Below are positions 1,340 to 57,810 of a DNA stretch of 64,000 nucleotides, one piece after another (position 1 is the first letter of the stretch; every line of letters begins with the position of its first letter). The notes under the pieces are model-generated. The model saw only the letters and a list, made by a program, of their open reading frames with translations. It was not told the origin of the DNA and did no database searches. A program made the translations under genes and the position numbers. This DNA is from a virus, in IMG/VR virus record IMGVR_UViG_3300038701_003016, positions 29 through 64,028 of that record. One strand, given 5' to 3'.

Positions 1340-1354
1340 ATATGGATATTAAAT

Positions 1355-1426
1355 GCTGTATAGCTTAAGGAAAGCGCTAAGCTGGTAACTTAGAGATGTA
1401 GGAGGTCGAGTTTCTACTACAGCCCA
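1355..1426 (+). tRNA. degenerate tRNA-Thr(GGT)-like element
   Basis: GCTGTA/TACAGC acceptor stem followed directly by CCA, D arm GCTT/AAGC, anticodon arm CTAAG-CTGGTAA-CTTAG. The T-loop (GGTCGAG) is non-canonical. Confidence 0.6.
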
Positions 1427-2561: not shown

Positions 2562-3197
2562 ATGTCTGTCGATTTTAACCGGTATATGGAAGATGCCAGA
2601 ATGATGCAGTCATTAAGGGAAGAGCAATTAAAGTATGATTTACAGAGGGAACAATGTCGTACTAAGCCTCCTTTAAATGAAGATAATTTCCTAAGGCTTA
2701 AGAGGGAATTGAGTTTGAATGTACTGCAACTTAATGAAATTTTAGTAGAGGTATATACACAAAACCGAAAAGGCCTAAATCTGTACGCAACGGGAACTTA
2801 CCCTAATAACGCTAGTACTTTCGATTATTATAAGGGAAGACTTGTTCCCTCTATATATTATACAGGGTTGCTAGACCCTTCATATAAAGAAGTTGCAGAC
2901 AGGTGGGAATTAGCTTCTCGGCTTGATAAGGTTATTTTGAAAGTAAACAAAGTATTAAAAGATTTAGTTTTAAAAGAAGATATTGGAACAGTATTTAATT
3001 TTCCAAAATATGAGCTGCCCGGCACTTCTAATGTAGTAGCAGATATTGAGGAAGGGCTAAGTCCTATAAAAGTGGTACAAATGAAGGTTCAATTCTTTAA
3101 TAATAGGCGTAAAGATGAAGATGATTTGAGAGCTTGGACTAAGAGGGTGAAAGAAATAAGCAAGCCTAAAATTAAATATCGTCCTATAAAATATTGA
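2562..3197 (+). CDS. hypothetical protein
   Basis: 211-aa ORF in an operon-like run with an AGGA RBS. Confidence 0.7.
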   Translation: MSVDFNRYMEDARMMQSLREEQLKYDLQREQCRTKPPLNEDNFLRLKRELSLNVLQLNEILVEVYTQNRKGLNLYATGTYPNNASTFDYYKGRLVPSIYYTGLLDPSYKEVADRWELASRLDKVILKVNKVLKDLVLKEDIGTVFNFPKYELPGTSNVVADIEEGLSPIKVVQMKVQFFNNRRKDEDDLRAWTKRVKEISKPKIKYRPIKY

Positions 3198-3207
3198 GGG
3201 TAATAGA

Positions 3208-3417
3208 ATGAAACTTGAAGGTGTTGCTAGAAGAGCTTATTTGATGAATAAGCTTCATTTAAAATTAAAAGAGGCTTCTATGGAAATAAGTCCTATAATC
3301 GCAGAGCTTCTTGATGAGTATAATACAGATGTTGTACTTGATGTTAACAATTATGAGAATGGCCCGGTCTCGGGACATAGAATGTTTGTATCAGAGTTTA
3401 AAACCTTAGAACTATAG
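3208..3417 (+). CDS. hypothetical protein
   Basis: Short ORF with a GAGGG RBS. Confidence 0.6.
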   Translation: MKLEGVARRAYLMNKLHLKLKEASMEISPIIAELLDEYNTDVVLDVNNYENGPVSGHRMFVSEFKTLEL

Positions 3418-9280: not shown

Positions 9281-9355
9281 AGACCCGTAGCTCAAAGGTA
9301 GAGCTGGCTGCTCATAACGGTTAGGTTACAGGTTCGAGTCCTGTCGGGTCTACCA
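9281..9355 (+). tRNA. tRNA with CAT anticodon (probably Ile2, possibly elongator Met)
   Basis: AGACCCG/CGGGTCT acceptor, A73+CCA, GGTTCGAGTCC T-arm, loop CTCATAA. The A1-U72 pair excludes initiator. C4-G69 and C5-G68 match TilS determinants. Confidence 0.9.
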
Positions 9356-9356
9356 A

Positions 9357-9433
9357 GTGTCCTTAGCTCAATTGGATAGAGCCATGTACTTCTACTGCAT
9401 AGGTTGCAGGTTCGAGTCCTGCAGGGCGCACCA
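9357..9433 (+). tRNA. tRNA-Arg(TCT)
   Basis: GTGTCCT/AGGGCGC acceptor, anticodon arm ATGTA-CTTCTAC-TGCAT, GGTTCGAGTCC T-arm, encoded CCA. Confidence 0.92.
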
Positions 9434-49023: not shown

Positions 49024-49302
49024 CTATCTATTTAGCATATTCTCAAATACCATTTCAGAAGTGAGAAATGTCACGATAATTCCATTTTTCCATAACGCAT
49101 AATAAAATACCCCTTCATAACCTATTCTATAAACCCTGATACGTCTTTCAGTATATATTTTACGACAGGTACCTTTGCAGATACTAGTATAACAAGCCAT
49201 ATATACCCGGGCAGCATTCTCAGGAAGAACTTTGTATCTAGAAACAAGTCGCTGGCAAGCATGGACACTTGCTCTTACGATCTTATCCATATCTGGATAC
49301 AT
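49024..49302 (-). CDS. hypothetical protein
   Basis: SVHACQR...IVTFL pattern. Confidence 0.65.
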   Translation of the reverse strand: MYPDMDKIVRASVHACQRLVSRYKVLPENAARVYMACYTSICKGTCRKIYTERRIRVYRIGYEGVFYYALWKNGIIVTFLTSEMVFENMLNR

Positions 49303-49304
49303 AC

Positions 49305-49982
49305 CTAATCAAGCCAGCTTTCATCTTCAGCGGGTTCATCAAATGGATTAGAGCACCCTTCTGGAAATTCAATAGTAGCATTGTCTCCTACCAACCTATA
49401 TCCAATTCCATGATCCTTTTGAAGCATAAAAAGGTAAGATAAAGCATTAGATCGAGACATTGAGAACTCTGCCATAGCTTCTCGTATAGACCTGATATTA
49501 TTTCCGTCTATAAACCACTTAAGAAATTTCCCTCTTTTACTTTTTAATTTTACAGCCTTCTTTAGGGTGTTAGCTACTTCTTTTCCGCCTTTAACCCTTT
49601 TATCTTGGCTACCATCTTTCATAATTTGGTCTGGGACTTTAAGCCCTAATTTTCTCATAATTAGGGCCGCAGTATCATAATCTTTTTGCCAGCCATTTCT
49701 TTGGAACTCTTTCCACTTCTTAACAATATGCTCAGAAAACCAGTCAGGCCTAAATTCCAGATCAACGCTGCCTGTAAGTTCCCCGGCTAAATTAGGTATA
49801 GAATAGCTCTGGAAAGTATAAGGGCAAAAAACAGTAGATCTCTTTTCGCCTTTTAATACTAGAGCGCACTGCCAACCATTACATGGGGGGTCCTTTATGT
49901 AAGCGTCAATTGTACTTTTACGTACAGACCCGTTAACATAATAAATACGAACCCATTCCATTCCCTCTTGAATAATAGACAT
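49305..49982 (-). CDS. hypothetical protein with C-terminal winged-HTH-like region
   Basis: SIREAMAEFSMSRSNALSYL. Confidence 0.65.
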   Translation of the reverse strand: MSIIQEGMEWVRIYYVNGSVRKSTIDAYIKDPPCNGWQCALVLKGEKRSTVFCPYTFQSYSIPNLAGELTGSVDLEFRPDWFSEHIVKKWKEFQRNGWQKDYDTAALIMRKLGLKVPDQIMKDGSQDKRVKGGKEVANTLKKAVKLKSKRGKFLKWFIDGNNIRSIREAMAEFSMSRSNALSYLFMLQKDHGIGYRLVGDNATIEFPEGCSNPFDEPAEDESWLD

Positions 49983-53382: not shown

Positions 53383-55743
53383 TTATTTCCTATATCTGCT
53401 GTACCTTTCAGCCTCTGCAGTAATAGGGCACCCTTCAGCCCATGGTTCAATTTCTGACATTAGCTCTTCAAATTCTTCCAAAGAGCCTTTATTCTTTGGC
53501 ACTTCCCCGACCATCTCATCATGGACTGTCATGAACACTCTATAAATAGTGTCTTTGCATCTTAACATTGCGTCAGCCATTATATCTCTAGCTACTGCTT
53601 GAGTTATATTCTCTACTAATTTTCCGCCATAGGATGCTGTACGAACCCATTTTCCTTTCGCCAAAGACATATATCTTATGCCATCTTTGACTTCTCCCCA
53701 ACTTGTCTTTGTAGGTTTTACAAGAGGGTCTCTGTAACGAACTAATCTACCTGAAGGTAGCTGACAGCACAAGAAACCTCCTTTTACAAACCATTTTATT
53801 TTACCTGATACATAGCAAGGACCCGTAAGTTTATCTCTTTGTTCTATATACTCTGGAGTTACTTCGGCGACAGCTCCTAAAGTTTGTTTGACTAAAGCTT
53901 CCCAGCCTTTAATAGCTGCTATCGCCGCTTCTTCTTGTTCCTTCCACATGGCTTTAACTTCAGGATACCTAGTTCTATAGACATCGACTGTATATTTCAT
54001 TAAAGCCAATTCGTGTATTATAGCTTTCGGATTTTCGTCAGCATCAATAAGTATACGTAAAACTCTCGACGCTTCTCTCTTTTTGAGAGGCTTAGCCTCT
54101 TTTCCAGGGAACAAATAGTCATTAACCCAATTATAATATTTTTCGTATTTATCTTGTAGGATTTTTGCTACTTGCTGTTTACTAAAAGAAATATCGTATT
54201 TACGGCATGTTAATAAGAAGGTTAAGAAACCCATTCCATAGCCTAAACCTAAAATGGCTTGTTTACCAAATTGCCTTTCTTCTGGATGGTCATGCCTATT
54301 TACTGGATATCCATAAATGCCCTCGGCCATATCACAGTAAATATCTCCTCCATTTCTGAAGGTTTCTAAGGCTTTTTCACAGCCAGCTTCCCACAACACA
54401 CATCTAGCTTCGATAGCAGAATAATCAGCTACTATAAGGTCATTGTCGATAGAAGGTATTATTAGGCCTCTTAAAGCACTAGAAAGGGCCTCCATAGTTC
54501 CTCCATCATAAAACGCTTCAAGCCAATCTGGATTTTGATCCAATATATCATTGGCAGCTACGTCCATATCAAATACTGATTTGTACTTTCCAGTTTTTTC
54601 ATCAAAATATGATACGTTTTTAGCTTTGCCTCTTGGAAAATTTTGTACTTGAATTCCTTTTCCAGACCATCTACCGGTGCCTGCTCCATGGTACATTAAT
54701 ATATCTCTAGCGCGGCCGTCTTCATGATCCGTTTTATCAAGAGCTGCCTGATATTTACGGGTAGAAGTTTTATTAACCAATTTTACAAGCTGAAGTACTC
54801 GGCGAGCTCTGCCTTCCACCTCTGGCATTTGTAAGAATTTATCTAAAGTAGCTGCTTGAGTATCTGGTAAATCCAAGTTTTCATTTTCTCTAAGCCAGTT
54901 TTTTACCTGTTCTCTTTTAGTAGCTGCAGAGATGCCTGTCATGTCTTCAAGCTCTGAATTCATTCGCTTCTTAGCTTCTTCGGCAATATACAATGCAGCT
55001 TTGGCTAGCTTAAGGTCAACTTGGGCTCCTGATATATTAATTTCTTGATCTAACTGCCACAATGAAAGCTCTCGGTCAGACAAGGCCGGAATAACGTCGC
55101 TTAAAGCTTCTTCAGCTCTTACATCTTGTTTACAATATTCCCATAACCTATAAATGTCTTCCTCTTCCTCATGCCATAAAGTAGGCATAGGAGTATCTCT
55201 TCCGTGTTTAGCTCTCCATTCTTGCCTTTCAGATTTACGAGGTTTTCTGGGTTTTGCCATTTTAAGCATAAGCCTTCGGCCTTCCATATCTTTTTCAATA
55301 GGAAGGCCCATAGCTTTACAGGCATTTTCAAGATCACGAGGGAGAGAGGCTGCACTAGCCCGAGAAGCAGAGCACCGCCACTGGTTTTCTGGAACCTCAG
55401 GCCACCCATATCTAGGCGTCATTATATGCCTCCAGATAACTCTTTCAAAGAAAGCATTGTGGGCTTCAACTAACCCTCCTTGCTCTATCCACTTAAAAAG
55501 CTCGTAGGGTATTTCGCTTTCAGCTATAAAAAATTGGTCGTGGCTTCTATGCCAAAGTTCTACTTTTCCTTCAGGCCAATAAGGTAACCTATAAGCTAAA
55601 CAAAATACGTCAGTTGTTGGATGCTTAGAATAAATCCATGAGCCAGTCTTCTTAATTTCGCATTCAGACTTGGTTTCAAAATCTATAGTAGCATGGAGAT
55701 TTAAATCAATATATGTTTCTATATTTAATACAGGTAGTCCCAT
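53383..55743 (-). CDS. family A DNA polymerase with 3'-5' exonuclease
   Basis: IDFET, DYSAIEAR (motif A), RQFGKQAILGLGYGMG (B), VHDE (C). Confidence 0.93.
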   Translation of the reverse strand: MGLPVLNIETYIDLNLHATIDFETKSECEIKKTGSWIYSKHPTTDVFCLAYRLPYWPEGKVELWHRSHDQFFIAESEIPYELFKWIEQGGLVEAHNAFFERVIWRHIMTPRYGWPEVPENQWRCSASRASAASLPRDLENACKAMGLPIEKDMEGRRLMLKMAKPRKPRKSERQEWRAKHGRDTPMPTLWHEEEEDIYRLWEYCKQDVRAEEALSDVIPALSDRELSLWQLDQEINISGAQVDLKLAKAALYIAEEAKKRMNSELEDMTGISAATKREQVKNWLRENENLDLPDTQAATLDKFLQMPEVEGRARRVLQLVKLVNKTSTRKYQAALDKTDHEDGRARDILMYHGAGTGRWSGKGIQVQNFPRGKAKNVSYFDEKTGKYKSVFDMDVAANDILDQNPDWLEAFYDGGTMEALSSALRGLIIPSIDNDLIVADYSAIEARCVLWEAGCEKALETFRNGGDIYCDMAEGIYGYPVNRHDHPEERQFGKQAILGLGYGMGFLTFLLTCRKYDISFSKQQVAKILQDKYEKYYNWVNDYLFPGKEAKPLKKREASRVLRILIDADENPKAIIHELALMKYTVDVYRTRYPEVKAMWKEQEEAAIAAIKGWEALVKQTLGAVAEVTPEYIEQRDKLTGPCYVSGKIKWFVKGGFLCCQLPSGRLVRYRDPLVKPTKTSWGEVKDGIRYMSLAKGKWVRTASYGGKLVENITQAVARDIMADAMLRCKDTIYRVFMTVHDEMVGEVPKNKGSLEEFEELMSEIEPWAEGCPITAEAERYSRYRK

Positions 55744-55754
55744 GTTTTATCTTT

Positions 55755-56009
55755 CTAGTCGAGGAAACCTTTAGTCCCATTAACAGCTTCTTCATACATA
55801 TTTAGAAGCTCGTCTTGTTCTCTACGGTCATATGCATCCATCTTTCTTCTTTTTATAACCATCCTAACAATTTTTGGATCATACCCGAGCATTTTAGCTT
55901 CGCCATAAATATCCCGTTTATCCTCATTATAAACATCTATTTCTTTCTGGACTGCCTCAAGTCTGTCAACTAAAGACTTTAAAATCTCAGAACTTGGCGT
56001 ATTGCTCAT
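55755..56009 (-). CDS. gapR: GapR-like nucleoid protein (DUF2312)
   Basis: LKSLVDRLE...EDKRDIYGEAKMLGYDPKIVRMVIKRRK...ELLNMYEEA. Confidence 0.85.
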   Translation of the reverse strand: MSNTPSSEILKSLVDRLEAVQKEIDVYNEDKRDIYGEAKMLGYDPKIVRMVIKRRKMDAYDRREQDELLNMYEEAVNGTKGFLD

Positions 56010-56037
56010 TTAATTTCCTCTAAATAAAAAGAGGACT

Positions 56038-56346
56038 TTCTGTTGCCCGGCCGTCCTCGGAGCCGCGTTCAATTAAGCTGCTTGAGCAAAATCAACAAGT
56101 GGTTGGTTATCGTTGACAATTAACGATTTTAGTCTATAAAGGAACTACCCTGCATTCTCCAATAACCTCTCATTGATAGTCGATCCTAGTTCACCCCCCT
56201 CAAGAGCCTACTGACAGAGCTTTGCGCCTTGCTAGAGGTCATAGGCGAGTCAACCCCTGCTTATCAGATATCAGTAGGCTCATGGTGGAGGTGCCGGGTA
56301 CTGCCCCCGGGTCCTACTCAATTAAATTCATCTTCATCAAATGCAT
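56038..56346 (-). ncRNA. ssrA: two-piece (circularly permuted) tmRNA, alphaproteobacterial type
   Basis: Acceptor piece ends GGACCCGGGGGCAGTACCCGGCACCTCCACCA (3' end 56283). Coding piece starts GGGGGTGAACTAGGATCGAC (56198). G3-U70 and A73 present; tag VNDNQPLVDFAQAA*; ends GGCAACAGAA. Confidence 0.93.
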
Positions 56347-56358
56347 ACTTAGAATAGA

Positions 56359-56514
56359 AAAAGGGCGCTCCGAAGAACACCCTTAATCTATTTAGCCCTC
56401 GATAATTCATATAGGTGATATACGAAATTAACTTATATAATATAAAAAGAGGGTGCCCCGAAGGACACCCTCAATTTCCTAGGCGGTCTTGAGAGGGGCA
56501 AGAGAAGCCTAGGA
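56359..56514 (-). terminator. three stacked hairpins (two UUCG-loop terminators) between SSB and tmRNA
   Basis: Minus strand GAGGGTGTCC-TTCG-GGGCACCCTC-TTTTT and AAGGGTGTTC-TTCG-GAGCGCCCTT-TTT, plus TCCTAGGC/GCCTAGGA. Confidence 0.75.
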
Positions 56515-56537
56515 GGGACACTCACATGTATCTAGCT

Positions 56538-57164
56538 TTAAAAACCTATATCGTCATCGTCTCCGAGGAAACCCTCAGTGTCTTCATCTTCAAGAAAATC
56601 ATCATCAAAGTCTTCAGCTGCATTCCGACGGCTATCAAGCCGATCTTCATCCGCACAATCTTTAACTTTTTGTAAATTCATAAGGCCTAAAGATACGCCT
56701 TTACCTTTACCGTCATATGAATATACAGTAACAGTAGCTCTAAAGTATGCTCCGGGGTAGATTTCATCCATATTACCTTCTTCATGGCTAATAGGATTTT
56801 TATTTCTATCTACAATACCTGGTCGCATTTCACTACTTAAATTGGCAAAAATAGTTCCTTCGCCATAGCCTTCCAGGTCCGCTTTTGATTTACCATCACG
56901 CAAACCAAGTTTGTAGCTAGCCCCTTCTGAATTTAAAACTTTAAGTTCTTTAATGGATTTCTTAAAACGTTCCTTAGCAGCCTCGTTCATAGCATTATTA
57001 ATATTACGCCATAAAACTTTTTCTTTTTCAGTAAAATTAGCTGGAGTCCAAATAGCCCCACAGCTAAATTTTTCTTTTGATCCTTCCTGATAAGCTTCAG
57101 GTTTTGCTAGTTTGGGAAAAGACATTCTAAATACTGGAGTCGTAAATCTTTGTACTGTAGCCAT
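56538..57164 (-). CDS. single-stranded DNA-binding protein (DUF2815 / gp2.5-like)
   Basis: RMSFPKL, LRDG, IYPG, KGVSLGLMNLQKVKD, acidic tail ending DDDDIGF. Confidence 0.88.
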   Translation of the reverse strand: MATVQRFTTPVFRMSFPKLAKPEAYQEGSKEKFSCGAIWTPANFTEKEKVLWRNINNAMNEAAKERFKKSIKELKVLNSEGASYKLGLRDGKSKADLEGYGEGTIFANLSSEMRPGIVDRNKNPISHEEGNMDEIYPGAYFRATVTVYSYDGKGKGVSLGLMNLQKVKDCADEDRLDSRRNAAEDFDDDFLEDEDTEGFLGDDDDIGF

Positions 57165-57246
57165 TTCGTCTTCCTTTCTATCTATAATGAAATCAGCTAT
57201 TACTCTTAAATAAAAGAGTAAATGAATATTATAAGTTATTAATAAA

Positions 57247-57810
57247 TTAAGAGCCCTTACTTTCAGACAATTCTAAGGCTTTTTGTAATAACATCGCTTG
57301 CCCTACAGCATCATCAAAAGCATCATGAGCATTAAGCCCTGTCCAATCTATTTTTGGAGTACCTGCAACCGAAAGAAAAGTTCTTGCACAGTAGGTAACC
57401 CTTCTGTCCCAAGGCACATCTCGACCTACTTTGTAATAAGCTGACTTCAAAATCGGGATATCGAAGTCAGAGGGTTTTGCCCAAACTCCTTGTATATCCC
57501 TCCAGCCGTATACTCCTGGTATATTTACTTTATTCAGCCATATATCTAAATTTGATAGAGCATAGGAAAGCTCTGTAGCATTCTGTTCAAGTTTTTTACC
57601 AAGGTCCTTAGCTAAAGGTTGTTGGAGCCACCATTGTAAAGTGGAATGGTCGATAGACCCTGCTCCATCTTGAAGTTTAACATACTGGTTAAACCCTTGG
57701 TCATTAAAAATACGCCCTTTGGATTTAAACTCGAATGCTACTGCGCCTATTTGCACTATAGAAGCATCCGGCCTTGTGCCAAAAGTTTCTAGATCTAGCA
57801 TAACATGCAT
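57247..57810 (-). CDS. DEDDh 3'-5' exonuclease (Rv2179c/DUF5051-like)
   Basis: MLDLETFGT...IVQIGAV...FDIPIL...HDAFDDA..QA. Confidence 0.85.
   Translation of the reverse strand: MHVMLDLETFGTRPDASIVQIGAVAFEFKSKGRIFNDQGFNQYVKLQDGAGSIDHSTLQWWLQQPLAKDLGKKLEQNATELSYALSNLDIWLNKVNIPGVYGWRDIQGVWAKPSDFDIPILKSAYYKVGRDVPWDRRVTYCARTFLSVAGTPKIDWTGLNAHDAFDDAVGQAMLLQKALELSESKGS

What the first reader, a model, noticed from the sequence alone, without database searches (positions are those of the whole stretch)
56038..56346. Phage-encoded circularly permuted (two-piece) tmRNA
Seen: the 3' tRNA half with the alphaproteobacterial GGCAGUA T-loop and CCA comes first, then an intervening segment, then the 5' half GGGGGUGAACUAGGAUCGAC. 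The acceptor stem GGGGGUG/CACCUCC has G3-U70, and the coding piece ends in CCGGGCAACAGAA. Established: this permuted layout is the Alphaproteobacteria form. The phage tmRNAs I know of (mycobacteriophages, Bacillus phage G) are one-piece. The gene sits inside the replication arm between SSB and gapR, with no integrase or smpB recognised, so it is not an att remnant. Inference: it rescues stalled ribosomes or replaces host tmRNA destroyed by defence nucleases.
Basis: partly seen in the sequence, partly recalled or inferred. Interest (0 to 1): 0.85.

Follow-up and report, generated by a model that had tools for sequence, protein, structure and literature searches.

The report
Two-piece tmRNA gene in marine phage
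This 64-kb marine phage really does carry a complete, well-conserved "two-piece" ribosome-rescue RNA (tmRNA) of the alphaproteobacterial type, but phages with such genes have already been described, so it is a new example of a known thing rather than a new kind of thing.

Summary
A complete circularly permuted alpha-type tmRNA gene lies on the minus strand at 56028-56345, between the SSB and GapR/PolA genes of a complete 64-kb virus record. ARAGORN calls it, and Rfam alpha_tmRNA scores 113.5 bits. G3:U70, ACCA, the T-arm, the long-range helix, the resume context and a 14-codon tag are all present. The genome has no SmpB and no integrase.

It is not an assembly artefact: contigs from two other studies carry it. 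It is not a recent host insertion: no sampled bacterium matches beyond the universal 32-nt T-arm.

Six IMG/VR relatives and two cultured Rhodobacter capsulatus phages (RcSimone-Hastad, RcRudolph; unannotated there) carry one in the same replication-module slot. Their helices are kept by compensatory changes. Close relatives (Tedan, RDJL phages) lack it, so it is a patchy accessory gene.

The implied novelty is wrong. Buchholz et al. 2022 list 53 permuted tmRNAs in cultured phages, including phages of Caulobacter, Pelagibacter, Roseobacter and Ruegeria.

It most likely performs trans-translation using host SmpB and AlaRS; this is not shown. Its oddities are a GUC (Val) resume codon and an unparalleled AQAA tag end. 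Verdict: new member of a known kind, with modest interest.

The parts
56283..56345 (-). Acceptor piece (first in the gene): 5' strands of the long-range helix P2 (UGCAU 56341-56345; GAUG; UGA-G-UAG 56314-56320), T-arm, acceptor 3' strand CACCUCC (56287-56293), discriminator A and encoded CCA (56283-56286)
   Evidence: Rfam alignments; dissection; sequence
56294..56310 (-). T-arm: 5-bp stem CCGGG/CCCGG with the 7-nt loop GGCAGUA (alpha consensus GGCgGUA)
   Evidence: T-stem paired in 35/35 cells across 7 phage copies, 2 compensatory positions
56199..56282 (-). Intervening segment (84 nt), predicted to be excised. It is a long hairpin whose closing stem brings the two acceptor strands together, and it ends in the leader UUGAG just before G1 of the coding piece
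   Evidence: closing stem 70/70 cells paired in 7 phages, changes on both sides at 10/10 positions; slid controls 20-33/70
56028..56198 (-). Coding piece: acceptor 5' strand GGGGGUG (56192-56198), AACUAGGAUCGA, 3' strands of P2, pseudoknot-1 region, tag reading frame, 3'-terminal hairpin
56073..56117 (-). Tag reading frame: resume codon GUC, 14 codons VNDNQPLVDFAQAA, stop UAA. It is preceded by the conserved UAAUU context
   Evidence: ARAGORN; Rfam alignment to GCa-AAC-GAc-AAc; comparison of 8 phage copies
56031..56058 (-). 3'-terminal hairpin GAGGAC/GUCCUC with the loop GGCCGGGCAACAGAAA
   Evidence: the same hairpin with different stem sequences in 7 of 8 phage copies. Each alone is weak (shuffles reach it in 4-31% of trials)
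56449..56472 (-). Intrinsic terminator T1 (10-bp stem, UUCG loop, U-run) closing the SSB gene
56361..56384 (-). Second, similar hairpin plus U-run (T2), 15 nt upstream of the tmRNA structure. Its role is unknown (terminator, attenuator or 5' leader structure)
56538..57164 (-). Upstream neighbour: Enc34-type ssDNA-binding protein
   Evidence: Pfam PF10991, E 6e-32
55755..56009 (-). Downstream neighbour: GapR-like DNA-binding protein. Its start codon is 19 nt past the end of the Rfam tmRNA match, with no terminator between them
   Evidence: Pfam PF10073, E 2e-20
53383..55743 (-). Family A DNA polymerase, used to find the phage's relatives
   Evidence: Pfam PF00476

Best explanation
This is an intact, selectively maintained ssrA gene of the alphaproteobacterial two-piece type. 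It is carried as an accessory gene in the replication module of a virulent-looking RDJL/Xp12-related siphophage of about 64 kb. The steps below are inferred from the anatomy and from established tmRNA biology; none was shown here. The gene is transcribed on the minus strand together with gapR and polA, because no terminator separates them. The precursor folds so that the intervening hairpin closes the acceptor stem. Host RNase P cuts before G1 of GGGGGUG. The encoded CCA end is exposed by host 3' processing, and the 84-nt intervening segment is lost. That leaves an acceptor piece of about 63 nt base-paired to a coding piece of about 170 nt. Host AlaRS charges it through G3:U70. Host SmpB delivers it to ribosomes stalled on broken mRNAs, since the phage encodes no SmpB. 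Translation resumes at GUC and appends (A)VNDNQPLVDFAQAA. The likely benefit is to keep ribosomes available while mRNAs are being degraded during infection. Whether the unusual QAA tag end changes the fate of tagged proteins is open.
For: Identity: ARAGORN calls it and two Rfam models match full-length at 113.5 and 109.3 bits. Functional elements are intact: a 7-bp acceptor stem with G3:U70 and ACCA, the T-arm, P2 pairing without mismatches in the tmRNA_permuted alignment, and the resume context and tag frame aligned to the alpha consensus. Selection: seven syntenic phage copies are only 52-72% identical, yet keep acceptor 49/49 cells paired, G3:U70 in 7/7, T-stem 35/35 with 2 compensatory positions, intervening closing stem 70/70 with double changes at 10/10 positions (slid controls 20-33/70), and P2a 35/42 against 7-18/42. 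All 8 tags, including RcSimone-Hastad, read xNDN...AA plus a stop. Not an artefact: a 40-kb contig in X1 spans the locus; an X2 contig from another study bridges gapR into the tmRNA at about 97% identity, and none of its 10 listed differences falls in the mature pieces; an X3 contig covers 56065-56324 with 2 differences. Not an att remnant: the gene is complete and the record has no tyrosine or serine recombinase. The cultured relative RcSimone-Hastad is described as virulent (PMC8601537). Dependence on the host: no SmpB in a record that CheckV rates 100% complete. Not a recent capture: BLAST against 401 alphaproteobacterial genomes, and against 120 loci sharing the exact 32-mer, matches only the T-arm/acceptor; elsewhere identity is about 60-65%.
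Against: There is no expression or processing evidence. No sigma-70-like promoter was found, and two terminator-like hairpins lie directly upstream, so how the gene is transcribed is unclear. The tag departs from the norm: Val instead of Ala at the resume codon (3 of 106 bacterial tags start with V) and AQAA at the C-terminus (0 of 106 bacterial and 0 of 67 viral tags). Pseudoknot 1 was judged only by eye. Close relatives (Tedan, RDJL Phi1, Phi2 and RDJL6, L123, L129-L134) do without the gene, so it is dispensable for this type of phage.
Confidence: 0.75

Rival explanations
1. The tmRNA works in ribosome rescue, but its point is the altered tag. The QAA C-terminus and Val start would weaken or redirect recognition by ClpXP or its adaptor. 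Rescued products would then be spared, or handled differently from those tagged by the host tmRNA, uncoupling rescue from proteolysis.
For: AQAA is unique among the 173 alpha-type tags collected here. The tag region shows no listed difference in the independent X2 and X3 contigs, so it is not a sequencing error. From my own knowledge (Flynn et al. 2001, E. coli): the residue before the terminal Ala-Ala contributes to ClpX binding.
Against: The other seven lineage copies end in the usual I/L/V-AA, so an altered degron is not what the lineage selects for. The NDN adaptor-like motif and the terminal AA are retained. No protease data exist for this host.
Confidence: 0.12
2. It is a decoy. The phage RNA competes with host tmRNA for SmpB, AlaRS or stalled ribosomes and so inhibits host trans-translation.
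For: There is a precedent: the CDS-less tmRNA-like RNA of mycobacteriophage DS6A inhibits endogenous tmRNA when expressed in E. coli (as reported in PMC11915505). The phage encodes no SmpB of its own.
Against: Unlike DS6A, it keeps a full tag frame with resume context and stop codon, and these are conserved in all 8 lineage copies. A decoy would not need them.
Confidence: 0.05
3. It is a neutral passenger: a host ssrA gene picked up by illegitimate recombination or imprecise excision, or an attP-associated remnant, with no role in infection.
For: tmRNA genes are common integration sites, and fragments of them occur in prophages (PMC9004378). The distribution in the lineage is patchy: 5-6 gains or losses on the PolA tree, no more clustered than shuffled labels.
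Against: The gene is complete and there is no recombinase. It occupies the same slot in 9 phages whose PolA is only about 32-63% identical, with structure kept by compensatory changes. No near-identical bacterial source was found.
Confidence: 0.06
4. It is an assembly chimera or host contamination in the metagenomic contig.
For: The same sample contains very abundant unrelated contigs that share only the T-arm (depth 2438 against 212 for the phage). Shared sequence of this sort can confuse an assembler.
Against: One X1 contig of 40,383 nt spans the whole stretch at even depth. An independent X2 contig bridges gapR to the tmRNA, and X3 also holds the tmRNA. Synteny holds in 8 other phage genomes, two of them cultured isolates.
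Confidence: 0.01

Closest known systems
Alphaproteobacterial two-piece tmRNA (Rfam RF01849; Caulobacter ssrA, Keiler, Shapiro & Williams 2000)
   Same: Same permuted gene order: acceptor piece, then intervening segment, then coding piece. Also shared: the GGC(g/A)GUA T-loop, G3:U70, encoded CCA, AGGAUCGAC after the acceptor, the long P2 helix between the pieces, the UAAnU|GCN-AAC-GAY-AAC resume region, the NDN...AA tag and the GGCAACAGAA 3' motif.
   Different: It is encoded by a phage with no partner smpB. The resume codon is GUC instead of GCN. The tag ends in AQAA instead of A(L/V/M)AA or RLAA. About 41 nt after the stop codon are missing relative to the Rfam consensus. A 63-nt insertion carrying a hairpin lies in the 5' flank. 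No sampled bacterium is similar beyond the T-arm.
Published phage-encoded permuted tmRNAs (Melnitz, Pelagibacter phages HTVC008M and Mosig, Caulobacter phiCbK-like phages, Roseobacter DSS3_MAL1, Ruegeria vB_RpoS-V10; Buchholz et al. 2022, PMC9004378)
   Same: A complete alpha-type two-piece tmRNA in a phage of marine or aquatic origin with no integrase. [quoted passage not shown]
   Different: Of the examples I read in their Table S1, those on hosts in Alphaproteobacteria have genomes of about 140-320 kb. This one is a 64-kb siphophage of the RDJL/Xp12/RcG type, with the gene in the SSB-PolA replication module. No glutamine riboswitch is associated with it. I found no published mention of a tmRNA in this phage group.
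Rhodobacter capsulatus phages RcSimone-Hastad and RcRudolph (cluster RcG)
   Same: They are related phages (PolA about 44% identical) with an alpha_tmRNA hit upstream of PolA (97.7 and 94.8 bits). The RcSimone-Hastad copy, which I dissected, is complete, with the tag ANDNVRMDAQALAA.
   Different: Their genomes are high-GC (60.7% and 65.3% in PMC8601537 and PMC9753621, against 37.7% here). The tag is canonical (Ala start, ALAA end). The gene is not annotated: it falls in a gap in MW677525 and under a 'hypothetical protein' CDS in OP009285.
One-piece phage tmRNAs (mycobacteriophages, Bacillus phage G) and the CDS-less DS6A tmRNA
   Same: They are phage-borne ssrA-like genes that presumably rely on host SmpB.
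   Different: Those have the standard, non-permuted gene form, and DS6A lacks a tag frame (PMC11915505). This one is permuted and has a tag frame.

Membership tests
Alphaproteobacterial permuted (two-piece) tmRNA, Rfam RF01849 / RF04321 | Covariance-model score above the curated gathering threshold, with a full-length match | tested here: met
   RF01849 113.5 bits (threshold 50), model 1-355; RF04321 109.3 bits (threshold 47), model 1-213
Alphaproteobacterial permuted (two-piece) tmRNA, Rfam RF01849 / RF04321 | Circularly permuted order: T-arm, acceptor 3' strand and CCA lie upstream of the acceptor 5' strand and tag frame | tested here: met
   ARAGORN 'tmRNA*'; dissection: CCA at 56283, G1 at 56198, 84 nt between them
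Alphaproteobacterial permuted (two-piece) tmRNA, Rfam RF01849 / RF04321 | 7-bp acceptor stem with the G3:U70 alanine identity pair, discriminator A and CCA | tested here: met
   GGGGGUG/CACCUCC plus ACCA; all 7 pairs standard; G3:U70 in 7 of 7 lineage copies
Alphaproteobacterial permuted (two-piece) tmRNA, Rfam RF01849 / RF04321 | T-arm with a 5-bp stem and a 7-nt loop of the alpha type | tested here: met
   CCGGG-GGCAGUA-CCCGG
Alphaproteobacterial permuted (two-piece) tmRNA, Rfam RF01849 / RF04321 | Long-range helix (P2) holding the acceptor and coding pieces together | tested here: met
   UGA-G-UAG/CUAUCA, GAUG/UAUU and UGCAU/AUGCA in the RF04321 alignment without flagged mismatches. P2a is paired in 35/42 cells across 7 copies against 7-18/42 when slid. 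The middle helix is poorly matched in the RF01849 alignment.
Alphaproteobacterial permuted (two-piece) tmRNA, Rfam RF01849 / RF04321 | Tag reading frame with resume codon, C-terminal Ala-Ala and stop | tested here: met
   GUC AAC GAU AAC ... GCA GCU UAA = VNDNQPLVDFAQAA*. It deviates in its Val resume codon and in Q at the third residue from the end.
Alphaproteobacterial permuted (two-piece) tmRNA, Rfam RF01849 / RF04321 | Pseudoknot 1 upstream of the resume codon | tested here: inconclusive
   By eye, AGGG/(U)CCU and UAGU/ACUA pairings are possible, with counterparts such as UGAC/GUCA and UGGC/GCCA in relatives. No anchored count could be made, and the Rfam models do not cover it.
Alphaproteobacterial permuted (two-piece) tmRNA, Rfam RF01849 / RF04321 | Processing into two RNAs, alanylation, SmpB binding and tagging activity | not testable with these tools
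   These need bench work (see decisive next steps).
Phage attP or integration remnant of a tmRNA gene | Only a fragment of the tmRNA gene, next to an integrase | tested here: not met
   The full-length gene is present. No PF00589 or PF00239 domain is in the record.
Self-sufficient trans-translation module (ssrA plus smpB) | SmpB encoded alongside the tmRNA | tested here: not met
   No PF01668 match at E<=1 in the complete record; the control found SmpB in 12 of the 14 control genomes, above the cut-off in 10

The most novel reading that the evidence does not exclude
The phage tmRNA writes a non-canonical degron. The tag (A)VNDNQPLVDFAQAA ends in QAA, which none of the 173 other alpha-type tags collected here does. 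This phage may therefore rescue ribosomes while sparing or redirecting the tagged products. More generally, RDJL/Xp12/RcG-type phages may keep ssrA in their replication module because trans-translation is tied to DNA replication in alphaproteobacteria. That tie is my own recollection of Caulobacter work, where tmRNA is cell-cycle regulated and needed for the correct timing of replication initiation.
Probability: 0.12. Interest if true: 0.5.

Novelty: new member of a known kind. Interest (0 to 1): 0.3.

Why it matters
Phage-borne tmRNAs are known, but their function during infection has never been shown. This finding adds a mid-sized (about 60 kb) phage lineage in which the gene sits at a fixed place in the replication module, is kept by compensatory evolution, and is present or absent among close relatives. 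That pattern is a natural comparison set. The lineage also includes two cultured phages of the genetically tractable Rhodobacter capsulatus (RcSimone-Hastad, RcRudolph), in which the gene has gone unannotated. The question "what does a phage gain from its own tmRNA?" could be tested there directly. For genome annotation, it shows that tmRNA genes in phage records are still missed or overlaid with spurious ORFs.

Tried and rejected
1. BLASTN of the tmRNA region and of the 19-kb replication arm against INPHARED phages gave no match. Relatives were only reachable at the protein level.
2. RNA evidence: no RNA holder was listed for the locus or for the gene alone. This says nothing about expression.
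3. The genome search 'relatives' is not available for a virus record, and 'of' needs a G handle. I worked around this through.
4. The sigma-70 promoter scan of 55500-57300 found none. A self-BLAST of the upstream 141 nt found no motif shared with other intergenic regions. The promoter remains unidentified.
5. A permissive Rfam scan for a riboswitch like the one reported beside the Melnitz tmRNA found only sub-threshold hits to terminator-bearing sRNAs: STnc100 at 28 bits against a threshold of 47, and MicX at 24 against 75. I rejected these.
6. Unconstrained-register MFE folding of the tRNA-like domains did not recover the long-range P2 helix consistently, so I replaced it with anchored pair counts.
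7. The 3'-terminal hairpin is seen in 7 of 8 copies, but each is individually weak against shuffles (4-31%). I kept it as suggestive only.
8. Origin of the gene: pairwise identities do not separate vertical descent from repeated capture, and the PolA tree shows scattered carriers. This is unresolved. The row L136 in that tree is a wrongly extracted ORF on a long branch and should be ignored.
9. X2 conservation: 4 of the 14 differences in the bridging contig are not listed, so "no difference in the mature tmRNA" is suggestive, not proven.
10. I did not use complex prediction, structure prediction or the large protein searches, because no protein question was open.

Full report
**1. The observation**

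- ARAGORN reports a permuted tmRNA at 55982-56379(-) with the tag VNDNQPLVDFAQAA*.
- Rfam alpha_tmRNA (RF01849) matches over its whole length at 113.5 bits (gathering score 50).
- The general tmRNA_permuted model (RF04321) matches at 109.3 bits (gathering score 47).

Reading the RNA from high to low coordinates, the parts are:
- the 5' strands of the long-range helix P2 (from 56345);
- the T-arm CCGGG-GGCAGUA-CCCGG (56310-56294);
- the acceptor 3' strand CACCUCC plus ACCA (56293-56283);
- an 84-nt intervening segment (56282-56199);
- the acceptor 5' strand GGGGGUG (56198-56192), followed by AACUAGGAUCGA;
- the 3' strands of P2;
- the resume region UAAUU|GUC-AAC-GAU-AAC;
- a 14-codon tag ending at UAA (56117-56073);
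- a terminal hairpin GAGGAC/GUCCUC with the loop containing GGCAACAGAA (56058-56031).

G3:U70 is present.

**2. Context**

The window is nearly all of an IMG/VR virus record of 64,159 nt that CheckV rates 100% complete. Overall GC is 37.7%.

The tmRNA lies in a minus-strand replication arm. In transcription order this arm holds:
- a DUF2800/PD-(D/E)XK nuclease;
- an Rv2179c-like exonuclease;
- an Enc34-type SSB;
- the tmRNA;
- GapR;
- a family A polymerase;
- an SNF2 helicase.

A prim-pol/VapE-type primase is encoded divergently.

No SmpB, tyrosine integrase or serine recombinase domain is detectable.

Two similar hairpin-plus-U-run terminators precede the gene: T1 at 56472-56449 and T2 at 56384-56361. 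No terminator separates it from gapR, whose start codon is 19 nt beyond the end of the Rfam tmRNA match. No sigma-70-like promoter was found. How the gene is transcribed is therefore open. Co-transcription with gapR and polA is an inference.

**3. Is it an artefact or a host insertion?**

It is neither.
- In the probable source run (X1), one contig of 40,383 nt covers the whole stretch.
- In a seawater run from another study (X2), a contig bridges gapR into the tmRNA (55799-56267) at about 97% identity.
- In a sediment run (X3), a contig covers 56065-56324 with two differences.
- None of the ten listed differences in the X2 contig lies in the mature tmRNA. Four further differences are not listed, so this is only suggestive.

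The exact 32-nt T-arm/acceptor sequence occurs in at least 120 species, mostly alphaproteobacteria. Outside that segment the best similarity is about 60-65%. In 401 evenly sampled alphaproteobacterial genomes, the listed BLAST matches cover only that segment. No recent donor is evident.

**4. Relatives**

By PolA, the nearest cultured phages are:

| Phage | PolA identity |
|---|---|
| Ruegeria phage Tedan | 59% |
| Roseobacter phages RDJL6, RDJL Phi1, RDJL Phi2 | 53% |
| Rhodobacter phages RcSimone-Hastad, RcRudolph | 44% |
| Xp12 group | 40% |

An alpha-type permuted tmRNA is present in six related IMG/VR contigs: L121, L122, L124, L128, L149 and L161 (L161 is the same contig as L031). In these it lies between SSB and PolA. 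In RcSimone-Hastad (97.7 bits) and RcRudolph (94.8 bits) it lies a few kb upstream of PolA.

It is absent from:
- the whole records of Tedan, RDJL Phi1, RDJL Phi2, RDJL6, L123, L129, L130, L132, L134 and L150, and the fragments L127 (49% complete) and L131 (56% complete);
- the loci of L133 and the others scanned.

On a PolA tree the carriers are scattered. At least 5-6 gains or losses are needed, which is no more clustered than shuffled labels. The eight copies are 52-72% identical to each other and no closer to each other than to other alpha-type tmRNAs. The history, whether ancient with losses or repeated capture into one slot, is unresolved.

**5. Evidence of selection**

I counted pairing at helices defined only by fixed offsets from conserved anchors, with no search for complementarity. 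Across the seven copies analysed:
- acceptor stem: 49/49 cells paired, G3:U70 in 7/7, and one U:A to C:G exchange;
- T-stem: 35/35 cells paired, with two compensatory positions;
- closing stem of the intervening hairpin: 70/70 cells paired, with changes on both sides at all ten positions (20-33/70 when the partner strand is slid);
- P2a: 35/42 cells paired (7-18/42 when slid).

All eight tags, including RcSimone-Hastad, read xNDN...AA plus a stop. This is the signature of a functioning RNA, precursor hairpin included.

**6. Mechanism**

The mechanism is inferred from the anatomy and from established tmRNA biology: the Caulobacter two-piece tmRNA of Keiler et al. 2000, and the three permuted lineages of Sharkady & Williams 2004, both cited in PMC9004378. 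The steps are:
- RNase P cleavage before G1;
- exposure of the encoded CCA;
- loss of the intervening segment;
- alanylation through G3:U70;
- delivery by host SmpB;
- resumption at GUC;
- tagging.

None of these steps was shown here.

There are two deviations from the norm.
- The resume codon is Val. Only 3 of 106 bacterial tags in my sample start with V, though L149 also uses GUC.
- The tag ends in AQAA. None of 106 bacterial or 67 viral tags does. The tag region shows no listed difference in X2 or X3.

Whether this weakens protease recognition is speculation.

**7. Comparison with what is known**

Phage-encoded two-piece tmRNAs are published. Buchholz et al. 2022 (PMC9004378) describe one in Melnitz. 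They list 53 permuted forms in cultured phages, 50 of them from marine or aquatic samples. The list includes:
- Caulobacter phiCbK-like phages;
- Pelagibacter HTVC008M and Mosig;
- Roseobacter DSS3_MAL1;
- Ruegeria vB_RpoS-V10.

The 2025 tmRNA database counts 79 bacteriophage sequences (PMC11915505). In IMG/VR, at least 119 contigs carry the alpha-type 32-mer, and 67 of them hold complete permuted genes.

What appears unreported is the gene's presence in this RDJL/Xp12/RcG-type lineage.
- The two papers on the Rhodobacter phages do not mention it.
- The GenBank records leave it unannotated (MW677525) or cover it with a hypothetical CDS (OP009285).

**8. Verdict**

- The identification is correct.
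- The novelty claim is not supported.
- The function is plausible but untested.

It is a new member of a known kind. Interest is modest, mainly because it points to a tractable system for testing what a phage gains from its own tmRNA.

Noticed in passing
window 56361-56472 (minus strand): Two similar UUCG-loop hairpins with U-runs (T1, T2) lie 64 nt apart between SSB and the tmRNA. This hairpin type occurs nowhere else in the window. The 111-nt leader folds better than all 200 shuffles (z -3.55). An independent X2 contig covering 56359-56519 is identical. It could be a tandem terminator, an attenuator or a small leader RNA.
   Followed up: partly
MW677525.1 32147-32537 (L323); OP009285.1 49090-49454 (L340, L342): Cultured Rhodobacter capsulatus phages RcSimone-Hastad and RcRudolph each carry an alpha-type permuted tmRNA (97.7 and 94.8 bits) that is not annotated. 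In RcRudolph the 'hypothetical protein' RCRUDOLPH_61 (49133-49468) overlaps it and is probably spurious.
   Followed up: yes
window 56178-56198 and 56283-56315, as seen in run X4: A 70-nt contig (depth 16) joins the T-arm/acceptor to an identical 21-nt start of the coding piece through only 9 nt. That is another permuted tmRNA with a very short intervening segment, possibly from the host or another phage. In X1, T-arm-only contigs reach depth 2438 against 212 for the phage, so an abundant alphaproteobacterium (a host candidate) is present in the source sample.
   Followed up: no
whole window compared with L121-L161: This phage is 37.7% GC, while all its tmRNA-bearing relatives and the cultured relatives are 54-68% GC. 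It is a low-GC outlier of an otherwise high-GC Rhodobacterales-phage lineage, and its host is unknown.
   Followed up: no
window 1354-1425 (+): Rfam finds a third tRNA-like hit at 40 bits (threshold 29) that ARAGORN does not call. It is in addition to the tandem tRNA-Met(CAT) and tRNA-Arg(TCT) at 9281-9433.
   Followed up: no
window 56016-56036 (minus strand): The 3' strand of the tmRNA terminal hairpin (GUCCUC) can alternatively pair with the gapR Shine-Dalgarno sequence AGAGGA (56016-56021). The scan reported this as a plus-strand 'terminator'. The related X2 strain has G>A in the RNA at 56020, which weakens this pairing, so it is probably not a conserved switch.
   Followed up: partly
L149 2719-2984 and tRNA at 3162-3235: The relative L149 also uses a GUC resume codon and the U6:A67 acceptor pair, as the window does, although its PolA is distant. 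A tRNA gene lies just downstream of its tmRNA. This hints at exchange of the tmRNA cassette between phages.
   Followed up: no
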